From IMG/VR virus record IMGVR_UViG_2681813274_000010: 5,947 bases of DNA. One strand, written 5' to 3'. Source of the stretch: a virus (taxonomy: Duplodnaviria > Heunggongvirae > Uroviricota > Caudoviricetes). Numbering within the stretch: the stretch's first letter is position 1; each line of letters opens with the position of its first letter. This document shows positions 1 to 5,947 of this stretch, piece after piece. Made by a program: the position numbers and the translations under genes. The notes under the pieces are model-generated. The model saw nothing but the letters and a program-made list of their open reading frames with translations. It ran no database searches and had not been told where the DNA came from.

Positions 1-582
1 GCCGGGAGAAGTAATCCGGAAGAGGTTTGTTTGACCAGTTGTATATGTGCCATCGGCTTTCTCCGGTGGCACGGTGTTACACAGCAGGAGTTCAATCCTG
101 CTCAAGATTGTNNNNNNNNNNNNNNNNNNNNNNNNNNNNNNNNNNNNNNNNNNNNNNNNNNNNNNNNNNNNNNNNNNNNNNNNNNNNNNNNNNNNNNNNN
201 NNNNNNNNNNNNNNNNNNNNNNNNNNNNNNNNNNNNNNNNNNNNNNNNNNNNNNNNNNNNNNNNNNNNNNNNNNNNNNNNNNNNNNNNNNNNNNNNNNNN
301 NNNNNNNNNNNNNNNNNNNNNNNNNNNNNNNNNNNNNNNNNNNNNNNNNNNNNNNNNNNNNNNNNNNNNNNNNNNNNNNNNNNNNNNNNNNNNNNNNNNN
401 NNNNNNNNNNNNNNNNNNNNNNNNNNNNNNNNNNNNNNNNNNNNNNNNNNNNNNNNNNNNNNNNNNNNNNNNNNNNNNNNNNNNNNNNNNNNNNNNNNNN
501 NNNNNCCGCCGAAACGCTGAGAGATCACAGCGATGGGCGGGTTAAGTGCGGGTGCGTTGAGGATGCCTGACACATCAGAGGT

Positions 583-610
583 GGGCGGGGATGGGATCAG
601 CTCCCCGCCC
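583..610 (-). terminator. GC-rich stem-loop just 3' of hok; possible hok mRNA 3' structure or terminator
   Basis: Perfect 8-bp inverted repeat GGGCGGGG (583-590) / CCCCGCCC (603-610) with a 12-nt loop, 8 nt after the hok stop. No U-rich tail follows on the minus-strand transcript, so it may be a structural 3' element (fbi-like) rather than a classic intrinsic terminator. Confidence 0.35.
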
Positions 611-618
611 GGTCACTC

Positions 619-774
619 TTACTTCCTGGATTCGTAGTCTACGAAGACAGCGACCTCCGTCTGGCCGGTTCGGATTCGTACCTCACAGAGGTCTTTCCTC
701 GTTACCAGTGCCGTCACTATGACGGTTAAACAGATGACGATCAGGGCGATTAACATCGCCTTTTGCTGCTTCAT
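619..774 (-). CDS. hok: Hok/Gef-family type I toxin peptide (51 aa)
   Basis: Translation MKQQKAMLIALIVICLTVIVTALVTRKDLCEVRIRTGQTEVAVFVDYESRK has one N-terminal hydrophobic helix and the conserved C..C tail of Hok/Gef peptides. It is nearly identical to E. coli HokD/HokC as I recall them. AAGGAG Shine-Dalgarno lies 9 nt upstream of the ATG at 774; stop TAA at 619-621. Confidence 0.9.
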   Translation of the reverse strand: MKQQKAMLIALIVICLTVIVTALVTRKDLCEVRIRTGQTEVAVFVDYESRK

Positions 775-831
775 AGCCTGCTTCTCCTTGCCTTTCGGCA
801 TGTAAGAGGCTAACCTACATGTGCAAAGCAT
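619..831 (-). CDS. mok: Mok-like overlapping frame (70 aa, N-terminally extended and in-frame with hok)
   Basis: ATG at 831 opens the same frame as hok (MLCTCRLASYMPKGKEKQA + Hok), preceded by a GAGG Shine-Dalgarno about 8-9 nt upstream. The layout resembles chromosomal mokC/hokC as I recall it. Confidence 0.55.
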   Translation of the reverse strand: MLCTCRLASYMPKGKEKQAMKQQKAMLIALIVICLTVIVTALVTRKDLCEVRIRTGQTEVAVFVDYESRK

Positions 832-900
832 GAAATTGGCCTCAGATTAATGTTAAGCGTCTTGCCGGACGCGTAATGTTAACTGGGGCTTTTCTCTATC
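823..900 (+). ncRNA. sok: Putative Sok-like antisense RNA (boundaries approximate)
   Basis: By analogy with hok/sok loci the antitoxin RNA is encoded opposite the mok SD/start region. Candidate plus-strand promoter: TTGCCT (788-793), 17-nt spacer, TAACCT (811-816). Stem-loop GCGTC/GACGC at 856-871. Transcript ends cannot be fixed from sequence alone. Confidence 0.3.
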
Positions 901-1065
901 TGCCTTTTGGTGTTCATGCCTGAGACAGATAGCCTCAAGCACCCGCTGCAATTCTACTTAACTCTCCTTTTCCCGCAAACCGTTTTTATCCCCAGCGGCA
1001 AATCGAATACACCACCAGCGCCACCGCCATCGCAATTCCTACCGTTGTTAATGCTTCAGGCCAGG

Positions 1066-1410
1066 TCATCGTAAAATATCCTCCACGCTTATCAGTCCGT
1101 TCCGCTCCAGATAACTCATCGCCTTATCCGGTAATTTGCAGTCTGGCTTCGCTTTCCTCAGTTGCCAGGTTAACTGCTTTACCAGCATGGTTAACTCATC
1201 GACCAGACGCTGATATCCCACTGGTTTGTATTCATGCAATTTACCGGCTGGCTCTGCTGCCAGCGATACCAGTGCGATTTCCAGAACAGCAATATCCATC
1301 TTATATGTGCGGATGATGTCATGGTCGATTGTGCCCGGTATGCACAGTCTCTGTGCTTCAATAGTCTCCTCTGCGTGAGCTATTAACTGCTCTCTGGTAA
1401 AAGTCGTCAT
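1066..1410 (-). CDS. Hypothetical phage-type protein (114 aa), paralogous to the upstream 55-aa ORF
   Basis: Intact ORF. Its ATG overlaps the stop of the upstream ORF (ATGA), suggesting translational coupling. Shares the N-terminal MTT[IF]T[KR]E and an IAL-SL-AEP motif with the 55-aa ORF. No family recognised. Confidence 0.6.
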
Positions 1411-1574
1411 GCCGTAGCCCCTTCTTGATATTTTTCAAACCAGAACACAACCGGCTCTGCTTCCAGCGATGCCAGCGCAATCCGTGCCAGTTCCATTTGT
1501 TCACCACGGGTAAGCCCGTTTTCAAGCGGGTTTTTAATGAACAATTCAATACGTTCTTTGGTAATAGTGGTCAT
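1407..1574 (-). CDS. Small hypothetical protein (55 aa)
   Basis: Not in the supplied ORF track. ATG at 1574 is preceded by AAGGAG with a 6-nt spacer. Translation [55 protein letters not shown]; stop TGA at 1407-1409 overlaps the next start. Confidence 0.55.
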
Positions 1575-1640
1575 GTGTTACTCCTTAACCCGCAGTGCTT
1601 TCAACTGATGAGGGGAACAANNNNNNGGTGCCCCATAAAA

Positions 1641-2327
1641 TCACTCCTTCTCTTCTTTACCGTAGTGGAGTTGACCAATTTTGATAAGAGGGCGTCCCTG
1701 AGATTTGCGGTGTAGATTGGTATCGCGCAGAGAATACACACAGCCACAATATTCCTGCTGATAGAATTTTTCGCGCTTGCTGATTTCAATCATACGGGAC
1801 GAGCCGCCCTGCTTGCGCCAGTTATAATCCCAGTACACCATGCCCGGATAATGCGCGACGGCTCGCCGCCCACAGTCGTTAACCTGCTGCATATTTTTCC
1901 AGCGTGAAATGCCCAGTGAACTGCTGATCACACTGAAACCATTTTCAGCGGCGTACAGCGCTGTCCGCTCAAAACGCATGTCAAAACACATGGTGCAACG
2001 GATCCCTCGTTCGGGCTCCCATTCCATTCCTTTGGCTCGTTCAAACCAGTTGTCTGTGTCGTAATCAGCATCAATAAACGGCACGCCGTGTTGTTCAGCA
2101 AAGCGAATATTCTCATCCTTACGAATTAAATACTCTTTCTGAGGATGAATGTTCGGGTTGTAGAAAAAGATGGTGTAGTCGATTCCCGAGGCCTGAAGCG
2201 CCTCCATCACCTCACCGGAACATGGAGCACAGCAAGAGTGCAGTAGTAGTTTGTTTGCCCCGTTTGGGAGCTCCAATTTGGGCCGTTTGAAATCAGCAAC
2301 TGTCATAAATATGTTTATTGGGGTCAT
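1641..2327 (-). CDS. queH: QueH-family (DUF208) epoxyqueuosine reductase-like protein (228 aa)
   Basis: Hallmark motifs [33 protein letters not shown] and EYCGCVYS match the cysteine-rich signature of QueH/DUF208 as I know it. Full-length ORF. True start could be ATG 2327 or the in-frame ATG at 2306; neither has a strong Shine-Dalgarno. Confidence 0.85.
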
Positions 2328-2470
2328 AAAAATATCAAAGAGTGTAGCATTAGAACGGGGCTATCGGAAACAGATGTGTGACTGCTCCCCGCCCTTTCGG
2401 GTGGTCTCCTGATGATTTGAGGGTGCAGAAATCCCTCCGGTTAAGGATTAAATTTTTAACAGTGCTAAAT

Positions 2471-2637
2471 TTAATTATTCAGTTCTGGATTTTGTCGCCC
2501 TGCGTATCCGCGCTTTCGCGTTACGCTCAATCTGTATCAGCTTTTCTATATTTCTCCGCCTTTCCTGTTCCTCCTGGCGCAATAGCCTTACATCATCTGC
2601 CAGTCTGGTTTCTCTTTTTGCCACAGAGAGCATCCAG
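2471..2637. repeat. Direct repeat copy A (pairs with 3418-3584)
   Basis: Ungapped alignment of 2489-2637 against 3436-3584 gives 139/149 identical nt (about 93%). Similarity continues more weakly through both stop codons. Copy A extends further to 2702, where copy B is masked. Confidence 0.85.
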
Positions 2638-2702
2638 TCAAACGGCTCCACAACCGCACCGCAGATTTTACAGCGGACCTGACGCTCTTTTTCGTCAACC
2701 CG
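2475..2702 (-). CDS. Copy A of a conserved CxxC plus basic coiled-coil module; 5' end runs into an N-mask
   Basis: Frame reads RVDEKERQVRCKICGAVVEPFDWMLSVAKRETRLADDVRLLRQEEQERRRNIEKLIQIERNAKARIRRATKSRTE, then stop. The apparent start MLIFLMHR in the ORF track is a GTG in an alternative frame of the upstream gene and is probably not real. Either a small gene starting inside the mask or the C-terminus of a fusion. Confidence 0.5.
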   Translation of the reverse strand, partial: RVDEKERQVRCKICGAVVEPFDWMLSVAKRETRLADDVRLLRQEEQERRRNIEKLIQIERNAKARIRRATKSRTE

Positions 2703-2713
2703 NNNNNNNNNNN

Positions 2714-3207
2714 ACCGATGCATGAGAAAAATCAACACCAGACTTTTCAGCCAGGTCCAAGAGACGCGCTACCAAAGGTGGGGGGGTATAGTAAGCCCCC
2801 AATTCCGAACGGTAAGCGGATGGCAGCATTACCGTATAAATTGACCCAATCAGATATCCAGCGTCCTCCGCCGGAAATTGAGCAATAAGCTCACCTGTTC
2901 GTTCAGCGAGCTCGCGTGCATCACATGGAATGTCTTCTATGTAAACAGTGTGCGGTACTGCCCTCATTTTAATGCTGCTTTTTTGCTTTTTTGCAAGGGT
3001 ATCCCAATATGCAGCTACGATGCTGAAGCAGTATGAGCGGGCATGCATCAACCTTGACTGCCCGGTTTTGTAATTGCCCGCATAACCTTTGGCCATGGCT
3101 TTACAAGTTTGATATCTTTCCAGATTAGAAAACTCATTATCTGTAAAAAAATCAAAATGTTGCACATTCATAATGTAAAATCCTAATGTATCAAACATGC
3201 GGGCCAT
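2714..3207 (-). CDS. Truncated gamma-class N6-adenine DNA methyltransferase, N-terminal fragment only
   Basis: C-terminal part of the ORF reads EDAGYLIGSIYTVMLPSAYRSELGAYYTPPPLVARLLDLAEKSG. This matches the D.LG..YE.LL ... G.[FY]YTP..[VI]..L[LM] region that precedes the SAM-binding motif in HsdM-like/type IIG methylases. The expected D-P-x-C-G-x-G motif I and the NPPY/DPPY motif IV are absent: the frame meets the 11-nt mask and then the unrelated module sequence. Confidence 0.45.
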
Positions 3208-3417
3208 AACATCTCATGGTGGCGCATAGCAAACTGGCCCGAAGAATATCACGCACCAAGTCGATCTCATAACCCGTTATGACAATAAATCTTTGTAGCT
3301 GAACTCACTTGGTGATTTGTCAATCATTCCTGGCCTCCAGTTCGTCCTGAATCTCTTTATCGAGTTCACCGTATTTGTTAGTCCTCATCACTCACGACTT
3401 GACTTCCAGAAATAACC

Positions 3418-3584
3418 TTGATTATTCGGGGCTATATTTTGTCACCCTGCGTATCCGCGCTTTCGCATTACGCTCAATCTGGATTAGCTTTTCTATATTT
3501 TTTCGCCTTTCCCGCTCCTCCTGGCGCAAGAGCCTTACATCATCTGCCAGTCTGGTTTCTCTTTTCGCCACAGAGAGCATCCAG
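3418..3584. repeat. Direct repeat copy B (pairs with 2471-2637)
   Basis: Same alignment as copy A. The repeat runs into the 527-nt N-mask, so its true length is unknown. Confidence 0.85.
3422..3584 (-). CDS. Copy B of the conserved module (3' end of a gene whose 5' part is masked)
   Basis: Frame reads WMLSVAKRETRLADDVRLLRQEERERRKNIEKLIQIERNAKARIRRVTKYSPE, then stop TAA at 3422-3424. It has 139/149 identical nt with 2489-2637. Confidence 0.5.
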
Positions 3585-4111
3585 NNNNNNNNNNNNNNNN
3601 NNNNNNNNNNNNNNNNNNNNNNNNNNNNNNNNNNNNNNNNNNNNNNNNNNNNNNNNNNNNNNNNNNNNNNNNNNNNNNNNNNNNNNNNNNNNNNNNNNNN
3701 NNNNNNNNNNNNNNNNNNNNNNNNNNNNNNNNNNNNNNNNNNNNNNNNNNNNNNNNNNNNNNNNNNNNNNNNNNNNNNNNNNNNNNNNNNNNNNNNNNNN
3801 NNNNNNNNNNNNNNNNNNNNNNNNNNNNNNNNNNNNNNNNNNNNNNNNNNNNNNNNNNNNNNNNNNNNNNNNNNNNNNNNNNNNNNNNNNNNNNNNNNNN
3901 NNNNNNNNNNNNNNNNNNNNNNNNNNNNNNNNNNNNNNNNNNNNNNNNNNNNNNNNNNNNNNNNNNNNNNNNNNNNNNNNNNNNNNNNNNNNNNNNNNNN
4001 NNNNNNNNNNNNNNNNNNNNNNNNNNNNNNNNNNNNNNNNNNNNNNNNNNNNNNNNNNNNNNNNNNNNNNNNNNNNNNNNNNNNNNNNNNNNNNNNNNNN
4101 NNNNNNNNNNN

Positions 4112-4471
4112 CTTCCGGCACTCGCGACAGATTATATTCAGGCGCCTGTCGTAGCGGCGTATTTCTCCGTCAGGTAATGACCAGATAAGGTCCGGATCAA
4201 CAACAACCGGTTTCCTCACCTTTACTCTCGAGAGTTTTTTGCGGGCGCTTTGCCAGTCCTTGCGAGCCTGTTCAGACGGGAATAAGCCGTAGCCAGAATT
4301 ATATACATCACCACTTGCGACCAGTTCTATGCATAAGCGACCGACAGACGCACGACTGATACCTGTTTCATCTGACAACTGCCGAATCGTGACCCGACCG
4401 TCCTGATGCACGAGTTCCACAATTCGCGTCTTCAGTTCTTCCCGCTGTTCGGGAGTAAAAGGTTTCGCCAT
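4112..4471 (-). CDS. Winged-HTH (DeoR-like) DNA-binding protein, 3' end masked; possibly Ren-like by position
   Basis: ATG at 4471 with AGGAGG 4 nt upstream, 14 nt after the DnaC-like stop. N-terminus REELKTRIVELVHQDGRVTIRQLSDETGISRASVGRLCIELVASGDV looks like a DeoR-type HTH. Visible part ends NIICRECRKS at the mask edge. Position directly after the helicase loader matches ren in lambda; sequence similarity to Ren is weak and recalled from memory. Confidence 0.55.
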
Positions 4472-4485
4472 AAATCCTCCTGAAA

Positions 4486-5232
4486 CTACTTAACAACCCT
4501 CGAATGGCTAACATTCGGACGCCAGCTCTCCCAGTTAAAATTCACCCAGCGCCCGCCGTTCATGACCATGCGATCCATCACCCGCTCGCCGAGCAATGTT
4601 TTCATCACCTCATAGTTCAGGTTTGTCAGCATCCCCACGCTGCGCATCGACGCTGTCCGGCGATCAACAATCTGGTGCAGCACCACCTGCTCGTTTTTCG
4701 TCTCGCGCTGAATGCCAATTTCATCAAGAACCAGCAGATCCACTTCGCACAGCTCCCGCAAAAATTTTTCGCCTGACTGCCCGTCGTCATAGCTGGCGTG
4801 CAGGGCGCTCATAACATCAGCCACGGTAACCACAATCACTGTCTGACCGTCTTTCAGCAGGCGATTCCCGATAGCTGCCGCTAAGTGATTCTTCCCGGTA
4901 CCAGGTTTTCCGCTGAACGCAAAATTTGTACACCCGGTCATCAGTTCATCGGCGATGGATTTCGCCTGGCTTAACGCGTATCGCTGGCCGTCGTTCTGCA
5001 CCTGGTAATTCGCAAACGAGCATTTACGGTGCAACGGCTGGATGCCTGAGCGATTCAGAATTTTTTCCACCCGCAACTGGCGATTCAGGCGGTTGATCTC
5101 CTCGCTACGTTTCTGGCCTTCAGCAAGTTGCCACTCGCGCCACTCCGCTACCGTTCTGAATGGGGCGGTTACATGTGGCGGGGTCAGTCGGCGGATGCGT
5201 TCCAGAACGCCGCCTGTCGCAATATTTTTCAT
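4486..5232 (-). CDS. DnaC-family AAA+ helicase loader (phage replication protein, 248 aa)
   Basis: Walker A FSGKPGTGKNHLAAAIGN and Walker B DLLVLDEIG, plus RSGIQPLHRKCSFANY and LLGERVMDRM. These align along the whole length with E. coli DnaC as I recall it, at roughly half identity. Intact ORF; its start lies 10 nt after the stop of the upstream initiator. Confidence 0.9.
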   Translation of the reverse strand: MKNIATGGVLERIRRLTPPHVTAPFRTVAEWREWQLAEGQKRSEEINRLNRQLRVEKILNRSGIQPLHRKCSFANYQVQNDGQRYALSQAKSIADELMTGCTNFAFSGKPGTGKNHLAAAIGNRLLKDGQTVIVVTVADVMSALHASYDDGQSGEKFLRELCEVDLLVLDEIGIQRETKNEQVVLHQIVDRRTASMRSVGMLTNLNYEVMKTLLGERVMDRMVMNGGRWVNFNWESWRPNVSHSRVVK

Positions 5233-5238
5233 GGTCCG

Positions 5239-5574
5239 TTACCCCCTGAAGCCTGGCGGGATCGCACTGTCCGGCAACGAGACGGTGTTAACCTGTCGGA
5301 GCAACGTCTCAGGCCGAACACCTTTCGGCGCGAACAGGCCCTGGTATTCATTGGCGATGCTGTGTCGAATCACCTGCTCAGGTGTAAAACCCTGCTGACG
5401 GAATTTTTCCAGTTCCCGTATCGCCCCGTTAGCGCCCTGCTCCGTTCGAATCGGTTTTCGCAATGCCTGTCTGAACCGGACCCACTCATGCCAGAGTGTT
5501 TCCGGCAACCAATCGGGCAGCTCAATAGCCTCCGGCTCGAATTTTTTAGACGCTCGTTTTTGGCGAGGGGGAGA
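5239..5574 (-). CDS. Replication initiator, C-terminal DnaT-like domain (frame segment)
   Basis: Frame reads SPPRQKRASKKFEPEAIELPDWLPETLWHEWVRF...RQVNTVSLPDSAIPPGFRG. The C-terminal motif VNTVS.PDS.IPPGFRG matches the C-terminus of primosomal protein DnaT as I recall it. The segment is bounded upstream by an in-frame TGA at 5575-5577, so it is not a full gene by itself. Confidence 0.7.
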   Translation of the reverse strand, partial: SPPRQKRASKKFEPEAIELPDWLPETLWHEWVRFRQALRKPIRTEQGANGAIRELEKFRQQGFTPEQVIRHSIANEYQGLFAPKGVRPETLLRQVNTVSLPDSAIPPGFRG

Positions 5575-5604
5575 TCAGTATTTAGATCTTCCTCTTCCTC
5601 TTCC

Positions 5605-5865
5605 TCTGGTAACGCTTTTTGATCCGTTTGTGTAACGCTGGCAGCGTTACCTTTTCGTTTCAGTTCGCGTATTTTTGTTACTCGCTCGTTTGTAACCGCC
5701 CGTTTTTTTTAGAGCTTTTTCCGTTATGACGTTCAAAGTTAGGTAGAGAAAGCCCTCCGTCATTTTCGACCAGCCATCCAACCTGAATTAACGCATCAGC
5801 AAAACCAGACATAAAAGTGATGCGATCTATTGCACTTTTTGTAACGCCGCGAGCGTTACAATCTG
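5605..5865. promoter_or_regulatory. Putative replication origin: iteron-like GTAACGC repeats inside the initiator gene
   Basis: GTAACGC occurs at 5609-5615, 5632-5638 and 5841-5847. Its complement GCGTTAC occurs at 5644-5650 and 5853-5859. Two near-palindromes result: GTAACGCTG-g-CAGCGTTAC (5632-5650) and GTAACGC-cgcga-GCGTTAC (5841-5859). A variant GTAACCGC sits at 5692-5699, with T-rich tracts at 5616-5620 and 5703-5710. By analogy with ori-lambda lying inside gene O. Confidence 0.35.
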
Positions 5866-5947
5866 CATTACCGTCTATCATTTGTTGATCCGCCCATGCC
5901 CAGAAGCGAATAACCTGAGGTAGCCTGAGTTTAACGGACACTCCTTC
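5678..5947 (-). CDS. Replication initiator, N-terminal domain (frame segment; 5' end beyond the window)
   Basis: Frame is open to the right edge of the window; the GTG start shown in the ORF track is probably internal. Ends NGKSSKKNGRLQTSE at TAA 5678-5680 directly after an A8 run. An acidic/basic linker continues in a third frame (5550-5708). Confidence 0.55.
   Translation of the reverse strand, partial: EGVSVKLRLPQVIRFWAWADQQMIDGNADCNARGVTKSAIDRITFMSGFADALIQVGWLVENDGGLSLPNFERHNGKSSKKNGRLQTSE

What the first reader, a model, noticed from the sequence alone, without database searches (positions are those of the whole stretch)
5239..5947. Replication initiator gene split across three frames by two -1 shifts at poly-A tracts
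The N-terminal domain ends at TAA 5678-5680 just after an A8 run (coding strand, 5703-5710). The Glu-rich linker (KALPEEEEEEDL…) is open in a second frame. The DnaT-like C-terminal domain is in a third frame, entered at an A6 run (5542-5547). Both transitions are -1 and both sit on slippery-type heptamers (A AAA AAC and A AAA AAT). Single-base under-calls in homopolymers, as from nanopore or 454-type data, are the most economical explanation. Genuine pseudogenisation, meaning a replication-defective cryptic prophage, or programmed frameshifting are the alternatives.
Basis: seen in the sequence. Interest (0 to 1): 0.5.

Follow-up and report, generated by a model that had tools for sequence, protein, structure and literature searches.

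The report
Decayed prophage replication gene in Shigella
This is the broken remnant of a replication-initiator gene (ydaU-like) in a defective Rac-type prophage of Shigella sonnei, inactivated by a mobile-element insertion, a 2-base expansion of an A-run and a 10-base deletion; it is an ordinary, already-annotated pseudogene, not a sequencing error and not programmed frameshifting.

Summary
The three-frame split is real. tblastn of an intact orthologue gives three hits in three minus-strand frames.

Compared with intact 262-aa orthologues, the window has three lesions:
- The A-run at 5703-5710 is A8 where intact genes have A6. That is a +2 expansion, not a 1-base under-call.
- The A6 run at 5542-5547 is identical in intact genes and is not a lesion. 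The second frame change is a 10-bp deletion between two TCCCCCT direct repeats, with its scar at 5566-5572.
- Window 5916-5947 is the terminal 32 nt of IS600. It has cut off the first 35 codons and the start codon. Full loci show a simple insertion with a 3-bp GGT target duplication.

The exact 87-aa product, which requires both the IS600 junction and A8, is on 492 contigs named Shigella sonnei. All 17 such gene copies I fetched also carry the 10-bp deletion. Sequencing error is therefore excluded.

Programmed frameshifting is excluded too. There is no start codon, intact relatives need no shift, the A-run varies from A6 to A9, and no significant downstream structure was found.

Verdict: a multi-hit pseudogene in a cryptic prophage. 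Low interest.

The parts
5916..5947 (-). Terminal 32 nt of IS600 (IS3 family), ending ...CCTCA at 5916. The element continues beyond the window edge. The GTG at 5941-5939 that opens the 87-aa ORF lies inside it.
   Evidence: The 34-nt query window 5914-5947 (this 32-nt end plus two flanking bases) is 100% identical in 3143 E. coli genomes, at up to 43 places per genome. It abuts an annotated IS600 transposase in NZ_CP023844.1. The full element is seen in L008 between ydaU nt 107 and nt 105.
5913..5915 (-). GGT, the right-hand copy of the 3-bp target-site duplication (ydaU nt 105-107).
   Evidence: In L008 ydaU nt 1-107 ends ...AAGGT, followed by TGAGG...IS600...CCTCA and then GGTTATTCGC. Only this side is visible in the window.
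5678..5915 (-). ydaU-like remnant, piece 1: N-terminal domain codons 36-105, then 7 out-of-frame codons and TAA (5678-5680).
   Evidence: tblastn HSP aa 33-105, 97% identity, frame -1. phrog_2509 positions 34-102, E 9e-37.
5703..5710 (-). A8 homopolymer: lesion 1, a +2 expansion of the ancestral A6.
   Evidence: Alignment A1. The survey found A6 in 68 copies without IS600 or the 10-bp deletion (nearly all intact ORFs), A7 in 2, A8 in 19 and A9 in 2.
5573..5708 (-). ydaU-like remnant, piece 2: basic/Glu-rich linker (codons 104-151) in the -1 frame.
   Evidence: tblastn HSP aa 104-151, frame -3. Frame-2 translation.
5587..5604 (-). (GGAAGA)x3 hexamer repeat encoding EEEEEE. Copy number is polymorphic among alleles (1-8).
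5566..5572 (-). Single TCCCCCT: the scar of lesion 2, a 10-bp deletion between direct repeats TCCCCCT-AAA-TCCCCCT. This is the true site of the second frame change.
   Evidence: Alignments. All 21 fetched gene copies with A8 or A9 lack the 10 bp. Every copy with A6 or A7 in which this site could be read has the 10 bp (58 copies); 12 further A6 copies could not be scored there.
5542..5547 (-). A6 run (Lys-Lys codons in the intact gene). It is not a lesion and is unchanged from intact orthologues.
   Evidence: AAAAAA in every allele scored, intact or broken, except Rac MN652886 (AAACAA).
5239..5574 (-). ydaU-like remnant, piece 3: DnaT-like C-terminal domain (codons 152-262) plus stop TAA at 5239-5241.
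   Evidence: tblastn HSP aa 152-262, 99% identity, frame -2. phrog_6451 'primosomal protein', E 1.7e-29. 2RU8 DnaT C-domain, E 9.5e-5.
4486..5232 (-). ydaV, an intact DnaC-like helicase-loader gene (248 aa) immediately downstream.
   Evidence: NF009043, 510 bits, positions 1-248 of 248. Pfam IstB_IS21 and Bac_DnaA. Annotated ydaV in orthologous loci.

Best explanation
The region is a genuine multi-hit pseudogene. It is the replication-initiator gene (ydaU-like, 262 aa when intact) of a Rac-type lambdoid prophage remnant carried by Shigella sonnei.

Three real mutations disable it:
1. IS600 transposed into codon 35/36. This separated the promoter, start codon and first 35 codons from the rest. 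Only the IS end and the downstream part are in the window.
2. The A6 Lys-Lys tract expanded to A8, which shifts the frame and gives a stop 8 codons later.
3. A 10-bp deletion between two 7-bp direct repeats (TCCCCCT), the kind expected from replication slippage, shifts the frame again before the DnaT-like C-terminal domain.

Shown: the three lesions, their presence in many independent assemblies, and alleles that have lesions 2 and 3 without IS600.

Inferred:
- Order of events: the deletion and A-run change came first and IS600 later.
- The prophage can no longer initiate its own replication.
- The 87-aa and 89-aa ORFs that annotators call here are not functional genes.
For: - Alignment to three intact orthologues shows A8 against A6, the 10-bp deletion and the unrelated 5' 32 nt.
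- The 5' 32 nt is the end of IS600. In L008 the full IS600 lies within ydaU with TG...CA termini and a GGT target duplication.
- The exact 87-aa product, which needs both the IS600 junction and A8, is indexed in 481 blocks and on 492 contigs. It is named Shigella sonnei (FORC11_0721). The 89-aa C-terminal ORF is FORC11_0720.
- All 10 fetched NCBI assemblies and 6 IMG/VR contigs with that junction (17 gene copies) also carry the 10-bp deletion.
- Window 4112-5947 is 100% identical to several of them.
- Intermediate alleles exist. A8 plus the deletion without IS600 gives a 113-aa product, SS53G_2911 of S. sonnei 53G, on 159 contigs. A9 plus the deletion without IS600 is seen in L060 and L087.
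- Of the 68 A6 copies without these lesions, nearly all read as uninterrupted 260-264-aa ORFs.
- Other lineages broke the same gene in other ways: A7 in L037 and L084, and an 11-bp deletion in S. flexneri 2a (AAN42505.1).
- The surrounding prophage is degraded in full loci, with several IS copies, a truncated ydaT and an integrase fragment.
- IS-driven and indel-driven pseudogenisation is pervasive in S. sonnei, and IS600 is one of the five expanded IS (PMC7373316).
Against: - I could not see reads, so the claim of independence rests on different accessions and projects and on contig sizes, not on known sequencing chemistries.
- The A-run length (A8 or A9) does not track a linked SNP among four alleles that lack IS600. 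Some A-run calls in other assemblies could therefore be errors, or the tract is hypermutable.
- The window is cut at the IS600 end, so the upstream half of ydaU is not shown for this particular sequence.
- ydaV downstream is still intact, which could hint at residual use of the module.
Confidence: 0.93

Rival explanations
1. Sequencing or assembly artefact: single-base under-calls in two homopolymers (true state A9 and A7) split an intact gene.
For: A-run length does differ among related assemblies (A7, A8, A9), as homopolymer errors would. The window contains N gaps elsewhere, so it may be a draft scaffold.
Against: - Intact orthologues have A6 at both runs, so A9/A7 is not the ancestral state.
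- The second A-run is unchanged. The real second lesion is a 10-bp deletion, which is not a homopolymer error.
- Even with both frames repaired the gene lacks its first 35 codons because of IS600.
- The same three lesions are on hundreds of contigs from many projects, including complete 4.8-Mb chromosomes.
Confidence: 0.02
2. Recoding: two programmed -1 ribosomal frameshifts at A AAA AAC and A AAA AAT, or transcriptional slippage on the A8 tract, yield a full-length initiator from the split gene.
For: Both heptamers are in the correct phase for -1 slippage. Runs of 8-9 A can support productive transcriptional slippage in some bacteria and IS elements (PMC1088944). The frame-0 to frame-2 overlap is confined to 5681-5708, right at the A-run.
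Against: - There is no initiation codon or promoter for frame 0. IS600 separates codons 1-35, and its transposase gene points away.
- Intact relatives encode the protein in one frame with A6, so the shift is not a conserved feature.
- The A-run varies from A6 to A9 among close relatives instead of being conserved.
- The A6 heptamer is just the Lys-Lys codons of the intact gene read in another phase.
- A shift there would replace about 10 residues, because the true lesion is 20 nt upstream.
- Downstream RNA structure is not significant: z -0.65 and -1.58, with 57 and 13 of 200 shuffles folding as well.
Confidence: 0.02
3. Selected inactivation ('domestication'): loss of the initiator is favoured in Shigella, so that the prophage remnant, with its intact ydaV, queH and hok genes, cannot replicate or excise lethally. 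This would explain the repeated independent knock-outs.
For: At least four independent kinds of lesion occur in the same gene in different Shigella/E. coli lineages: A7, the 10-bp deletion with A8 or A9, an 11-bp deletion, and IS600. The neighbouring ydaV, queH and hokD stay intact in the window. Hawkey et al. report convergent gene loss in Shigella beyond chance (PMC7373316).
Against: Multiple hits in one allele are what neutral decay after the first knock-out looks like. No test of selection was done. Prophage genes are commonly lost neutrally. This rival concerns why the gene decayed, not what it is, and it is compatible with the best explanation.
Confidence: 0.1

Closest known systems
ydaU-like replication initiator of Rac-type prophages (262-aa form, e.g. 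WP_038340159.1, WP_001737256.1 'phage replication initiator YdaU family protein', QGT53750.1 of phage Rac MN652886)
   Same: 93-98% nucleotide identity over ydaU nt 105-789. Same position directly upstream of ydaV. Same PHROG family 2509.
   Different: The window copy is headless (IS600), has A8 instead of A6, and lacks 10 bp. No continuous ORF remains.
E. coli K-12 Rac YdaU (285 aa, Pfam DUF1376)
   Same: The C-terminal 124 residues are 81% identical. Same gene order with ydaV.
   Different: The N-terminal domains are unrelated by BLASTP, and the 262-aa form gets no Pfam DUF1376 hit. The initiator is modular, and this is the other N-domain type.
DnaT (primosomal protein 1) C-terminal domain, PDB 2RU8 / 9ZBT
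   Same: aa 170-262 of the intact orthologue align to the DnaT C-domain, including the terminal ...VNTVS.PDS.IPPGFRG motif (E 9.5e-5).
   Different: Only the C-domain is shared. The NCBIfam DnaT equivalog scores 16-17 bits against a cut-off of 201, so this is not a DnaT orthologue.
IS600-interrupted and frameshifted pseudogenes of Shigella (Hawkey et al. 2020, PMC7373316)
   Same: IS600 insertion combined with indel frameshifts in one CDS. That paper reports 12% of interrupted S. sonnei genes with both IS and other mutations.
   Different: Nothing material. This is one more example.
dnaX / IS3-type programmed -1 frameshift sites and A9 transcriptional-slippage sites
   Same: A-rich heptamer in phase; A8 tract.
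   Different: No conservation, no start codon, no significant stimulatory structure, and orthologues need no shift.

Membership tests
Rac-type ydaU-like replication initiator (PHROG 2509) | Sequence homology across the family profile | tested here: met
   The intact orthologue matches phrog_2509 over 1-262 of 277 positions, E 1.2e-89. The window pieces match positions 34-102 (E 9e-37) and 193-277. Three tblastn HSPs.
Rac-type ydaU-like replication initiator (PHROG 2509) | Location in the lambdoid replication module, immediately upstream of a DnaC-like loader gene | tested here: met
   ydaV at 4486-5232 starts 7 nt after the ydaU stop. Repressor/cro/ydaT lie upstream in L001-L003 and L008.
Rac-type ydaU-like replication initiator (PHROG 2509) | One uninterrupted ORF with its own start codon (a functional member) | tested here: not met
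   IS600 lies at codon 35/36, with +2 at 5703-5710 and -10 at 5566-5572. It is a pseudogene of the family, not a working member.
K-12 YdaU / Pfam DUF1376 (PF07120) | DUF1376 N-terminal domain | tested here: not met
   No Pfam hit at E<=0.01 for the intact 262-aa orthologue or for the window pieces. The N-termini do not align with the 285-aa YdaU.
DnaT primosomal protein | Score above the NCBIfam equivalog cut-off (NF002770, 201 bits) | tested here: not met
   16-17 bits, last 19 residues only. Domain-level similarity to the DnaT C-domain is real (E 9.5e-5).
IS600 (IS3 family) insertion | Terminal sequence identical to bona fide IS600 ends, with TG...CA termini | tested here: met
   The 34-nt query 5914-5947 (the 32-nt IS600 end plus two flanking bases) is 100% identical next to an annotated IS600 transposase. 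L008 shows TGAGG...CCTCA.
IS600 (IS3 family) insertion | 3-bp target-site duplication flanking a complete element | tested here: met
   GGT is duplicated in L008. In the window itself only the right flank is present, because the window ends inside the IS.
Programmed -1 ribosomal frameshift site | Slippery X XXY YYZ heptamer in the zero-frame phase | tested here: met
   AAA AAA AAC in frame 0 and CTA AAA AAT in the linker frame.
Programmed -1 ribosomal frameshift site | Heptamer and two-frame organisation conserved among homologues | tested here: not met
   68 A6 copies lack these lesions and nearly all read in a single frame. The run varies from A6 to A9.
Programmed -1 ribosomal frameshift site | Downstream stimulatory RNA structure | tested here: inconclusive
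   MFE z-scores -0.65 and -1.58 against shuffles. Pseudoknots were not evaluated.
Homopolymer sequencing artefact | Lesion private to one assembly, and a +/-1 correction restores the orthologue sequence | tested here: not met
   492 contigs share the 87-aa product. The orthologue state is A6, not A9, and the second lesion is a 10-bp deletion.

The most novel reading that the evidence does not exclude
The replication initiator of this Rac-type prophage family is a repeated target of inactivation in Shigella lineages. At least four independent lesion types were seen: A6 to A7, the 10-bp deletion with A8 or A9, an 11-bp deletion in S. flexneri, and IS600. The adjacent ydaV, queH and hok genes stay intact. 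This could reflect selection to immobilise a prophage remnant whose other genes are kept, rather than neutral decay. In that reading the hypermutable A-tract and the (GGAAGA)n repeat act as the mutational entry points.
Probability: 0.1. Interest if true: 0.3.

Novelty: already known. Interest (0 to 1): 0.07.

Why it matters
It matters little biologically. This is one more IS-hit, frameshifted prophage gene in Shigella sonnei, a species already known for rapid IS-driven pseudogene accumulation (PMC7373316).

The practical points concern method:
- A three-frame split next to A-runs looked like homopolymer error or recoding. A single alignment to intact orthologues showed a +2 expansion, a 10-bp direct-repeat deletion and an IS insertion.
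- The 87-aa and 89-aa ORFs that public annotations call 'putative bacteriophage protein' or 'hypothetical protein' (FORC11_0721 and FORC11_0720) are fragments of one pseudogene.
- The stepwise alleles could serve as lineage markers within S. sonnei: the deletion with A8 or A9 but no IS600 (53G type), and the deletion with A8 and IS600 (the type seen in this window).

Tried and rejected
- A genome-contig scan for the deletion junction with N{0,10} found only two species representatives, S. flexneri SFBU1023 and E. coli ECMA0423. Both have the 10 bp present. The window's own genome was not found there, probably because S. sonnei is not a separate species representative (inference).
- No complete RefSeq E. 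coli genome (5426) carries an identical allele; the best is 98.4%. This pointed away from E. coli proper.
- Pfam gave no family for the 262-aa initiator. NCBIfam gave only a sub-threshold DnaT tail. PHROGs and the PDB sequence search were needed.
- I first read the 34-nt 5' segment's overlap with a 'TraT' pseudogene annotation in O157 genomes as possibly meaningful. I rejected that: the shared sequence there sits beside a partial transposase pseudogene and appears to be an IS600-end remnant.
- RNA folding downstream of both heptamers gave nothing significant.
- I tried to find a locus collinear with the whole window. None of the 92 fetched loci, and no complete E. coli genome, covers 968-1626 and 2703-2998. 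I left this as a side observation.
- A literature search for ydaU function found only passing mentions.

Full report
**What is in the sequence**

On the minus strand, 5947..5239 reads in three frames:
- Frame 0 gives ...VIRFWAWADQQ...HNGKSSKKNGRLQTSE and stops at TAA 5678-5680.
- The -1 frame opens just after a TAA at 5709-5711 and gives KKRAVTNERVTKIRELKRKGNAASVTQTDQKALPEEEEEEDLNTDLP...
- The third frame opens after a stop at 5575-5577 and gives PPRQKRASKKFEPEAIELPDW...IPPGFRG, with a stop at 5239-5241.

tblastn of an intact orthologue against the window gives three collinear HSPs in three frames:
- aa 33-105 at 5923..5705
- aa 104-151 at 5708..~5565
- aa 152-262 at 5574..5242

The split is therefore real and not a chance pattern.

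**What the gene is**

megablast places the region in the ydaU-ydaV replication module of Rac-type prophages. It matches 681 complete E. coli genomes at 80% coverage or more, and phage Rac MN652886 at 93%. In those records ydaU is a single 789-nt / 262-aa CDS directly upstream of ydaV.

The intact protein matches several references:
- PHROG 2509 'replication initiation protein' end to end, E 1.2e-89.
- Its last 93 residues match the C-terminal domain of DnaT, PDB 2RU8, E 9.5e-5.
- It shares that C-terminal half (81% identity) with the K-12 285-aa YdaU.

Its N-terminal domain is unrelated to that of K-12 YdaU, and it has no Pfam DUF1376 hit. ydaV in the window (4486-5232) is full length (NF009043, 510 bits).

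**The real lesions**

1. The first A-run is A8 in the window and A6 in intact genes. This is a +2 expansion. It is equivalent to a -1 frame change, but it is not an under-called A9.
2. The A6 run at 5542-5547 is identical in intact genes, where it encodes Lys-Lys. The second frame change is a 10-bp deletion that collapses TCCCCCT-AAA-TCCCCCT to a single TCCCCCT (5566-5572). This is a direct-repeat deletion of the slipped-strand kind.
3. The first 32 nt of the coding strand (5947..5916) are not ydaU.
   - They are 100% identical to a multicopy sequence found at up to 43 places per genome.
   - That sequence abuts the annotated IS600 transposase.
   - In complete loci the whole IS600 sits inside ydaU as ydaU nt 1-107 | TGAGG...CCTCA | ydaU nt 105 onward, with a GGT target duplication.
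   - The window therefore holds only the promoter-less, start-less 3' part of the gene.

**Artefact or real?**

The 87-aa ORF 5678-5941 can exist only if both the IS600 junction and A8 are present.
- Its exact sequence is indexed in 481 blocks and on 492 contigs.
- It is named Shigella sonnei (e.g. FORC11_0721). The 89-aa C-terminal ORF is FORC11_0720.
- The contigs that carry it range from 2-5 kb fragments to chromosomes over 4.8 Mb.
- All ten NCBI assemblies I fetched, and six further IMG/VR contigs, carry the IS600 junction, A8 and the 10-bp deletion together.
- Window 4112-5947 is 100% identical to several of them.

A survey of 91 gene copies in the fetched loci found:

| Allele | Copies | Notes |
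|---|---|---|
| A6, no IS600, no 10-bp deletion detected | 68 | 10 bp confirmed present in 56; nearly all intact 260-264-aa ORFs |
| A7, 10 bp present | 2 | ORF truncated |
| A8, 10-bp deletion, IS600 | 17 | the window's type |
| A8, 10-bp deletion, no IS600 | 2 | 113-aa product = SS53G_2911 of S. sonnei 53G, on 159 contigs |
| A9, 10-bp deletion, no IS600 | 2 | L060, L087 |

S. flexneri 2a carries an independent 11-bp deletion in the same gene (AAN42505.1).

Sequencing error is thus excluded for the window's lesions. The alleles form a decay series in which IS600 is the latest hit (inference).

**Recoding?**

- The heptamers are in phase, but frame 0 has no start codon and is separated from its promoter by IS600.
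- Intact relatives need no shift.
- The A-run is not conserved (A6 to A9).
- The A6 'heptamer' is simply the Lys-Lys codons of the intact gene.
- Downstream RNA structures are not better than shuffles: z -0.65 and -1.58.
- Transcriptional slippage on eight As is documented elsewhere (PMC1088944). It cannot rescue a gene that also lacks 10 bp and its 5' end.

**Context and comparison with what is known**

Full loci show a heavily degraded prophage, with several IS copies, a truncated ydaT and an integrase fragment. Hawkey et al. report that IS600 is one of five IS expanded in all Shigella species. They attribute 50% of S. sonnei pseudogenes directly to IS, and a further 12% carry both IS and other mutations (PMC7373316). 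This locus is one such case.

**Verdict**

Nothing here is novel, and interest is low.

The only mildly interesting residue is the repeated, independent inactivation of this initiator in different Shigella lineages. I did not test that for selection.

Noticed in passing
window 112-505, 1621-1626, 2703-2713, 3585-4111: There are four runs of N (394, 6, 11 and 527 nt). The 527-nt run corresponds to 690 nt in the closest locus, L092, so the runs do not preserve length. The window looks like a draft scaffold or a masked sequence rather than finished DNA.
   Followed up: partly
window 2475-2738 vs 3422-3584; 2695-3207; 968-1626: Two diverged copies (about 93% nucleotide identity) of the same gene 3' end (…WMLSVAKRETRLADDVRLLRQEE…) flank a fragment resembling a DNA methyltransferase N-terminus (…GAYYTPPPLVARLL…). 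Segments 2703-2998 and 968-1626 are absent from all S. sonnei-type loci fetched. No complete E. coli genome is collinear with 506-3584 (at most 55% covered). This could be a mosaic of two paralogous Rac-like prophages or a scaffolding chimera.
   Followed up: partly
window 5587-5604: The (GGAAGA)n repeat encoding the poly-Glu linker is polymorphic. Intact alleles have 1-4 units. Alleles with the 10-bp deletion have 3-8 units, including 3, 6 and 7 among S. sonnei assemblies. This may be relaxed constraint, or long-read and short-read assembly differences.
   Followed up: partly
L037, L084 (A7); L006, L007, L061, L067, L069 (11-bp deletion); L031: The same initiator gene is broken independently in other lineages. 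A6 to A7 gives 117- and 123-aa products; the 123-aa form is on 84 contigs named S. sonnei or S. flexneri. An 11-bp deletion (GGGCGCTAACG) in the C-domain of S. flexneri 2a gives 210-216 aa.
   Followed up: partly
L049, L091, L060, L087: Among alleles with the 10-bp deletion but no IS600, A8 versus A9 does not co-vary with a linked C/T SNP in the C-domain. The tract has changed length more than once, or some assemblies mis-call it.
   Followed up: no
L012, L015, L016, L017 (upstream of IS600, locus positions about 3000-4800): In these draft assemblies the other flank of the IS600 is not the ydaU 5' piece. It is a truncated ydaV of a second Rac-like prophage that has a K-12-type 285-aa YdaU (DUF1376). 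This suggests IS600-mediated recombination between two prophages, or mis-joins at the repeat.
   Followed up: no
window 5939-5941: The GTG that opens the annotated 87-aa 'putative bacteriophage protein' lies inside the IS600 terminal repeat, so the called ORF is an IS-ydaU hybrid. Whether anything transcribes outward from this IS end is unknown.
   Followed up: no
L001 2898-3686 vs L012 3176-4033: The two YdaU types share an 81%-identical DnaT-like C-terminal 124 aa but have unrelated N-terminal domains. This is a modular swap like the origin-specificity domains of lambdoid O proteins.
   Followed up: partly
window 619-831 and 1641-2327: A Hok/Gef-family toxin ORF (70 aa, hokD-like) and a QueH epoxyqueuosine reductase ORF (228 aa) appear as uninterrupted ORFs in the same prophage remnant whose initiator is destroyed. 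Neither was compared with an orthologue here.
   Followed up: no
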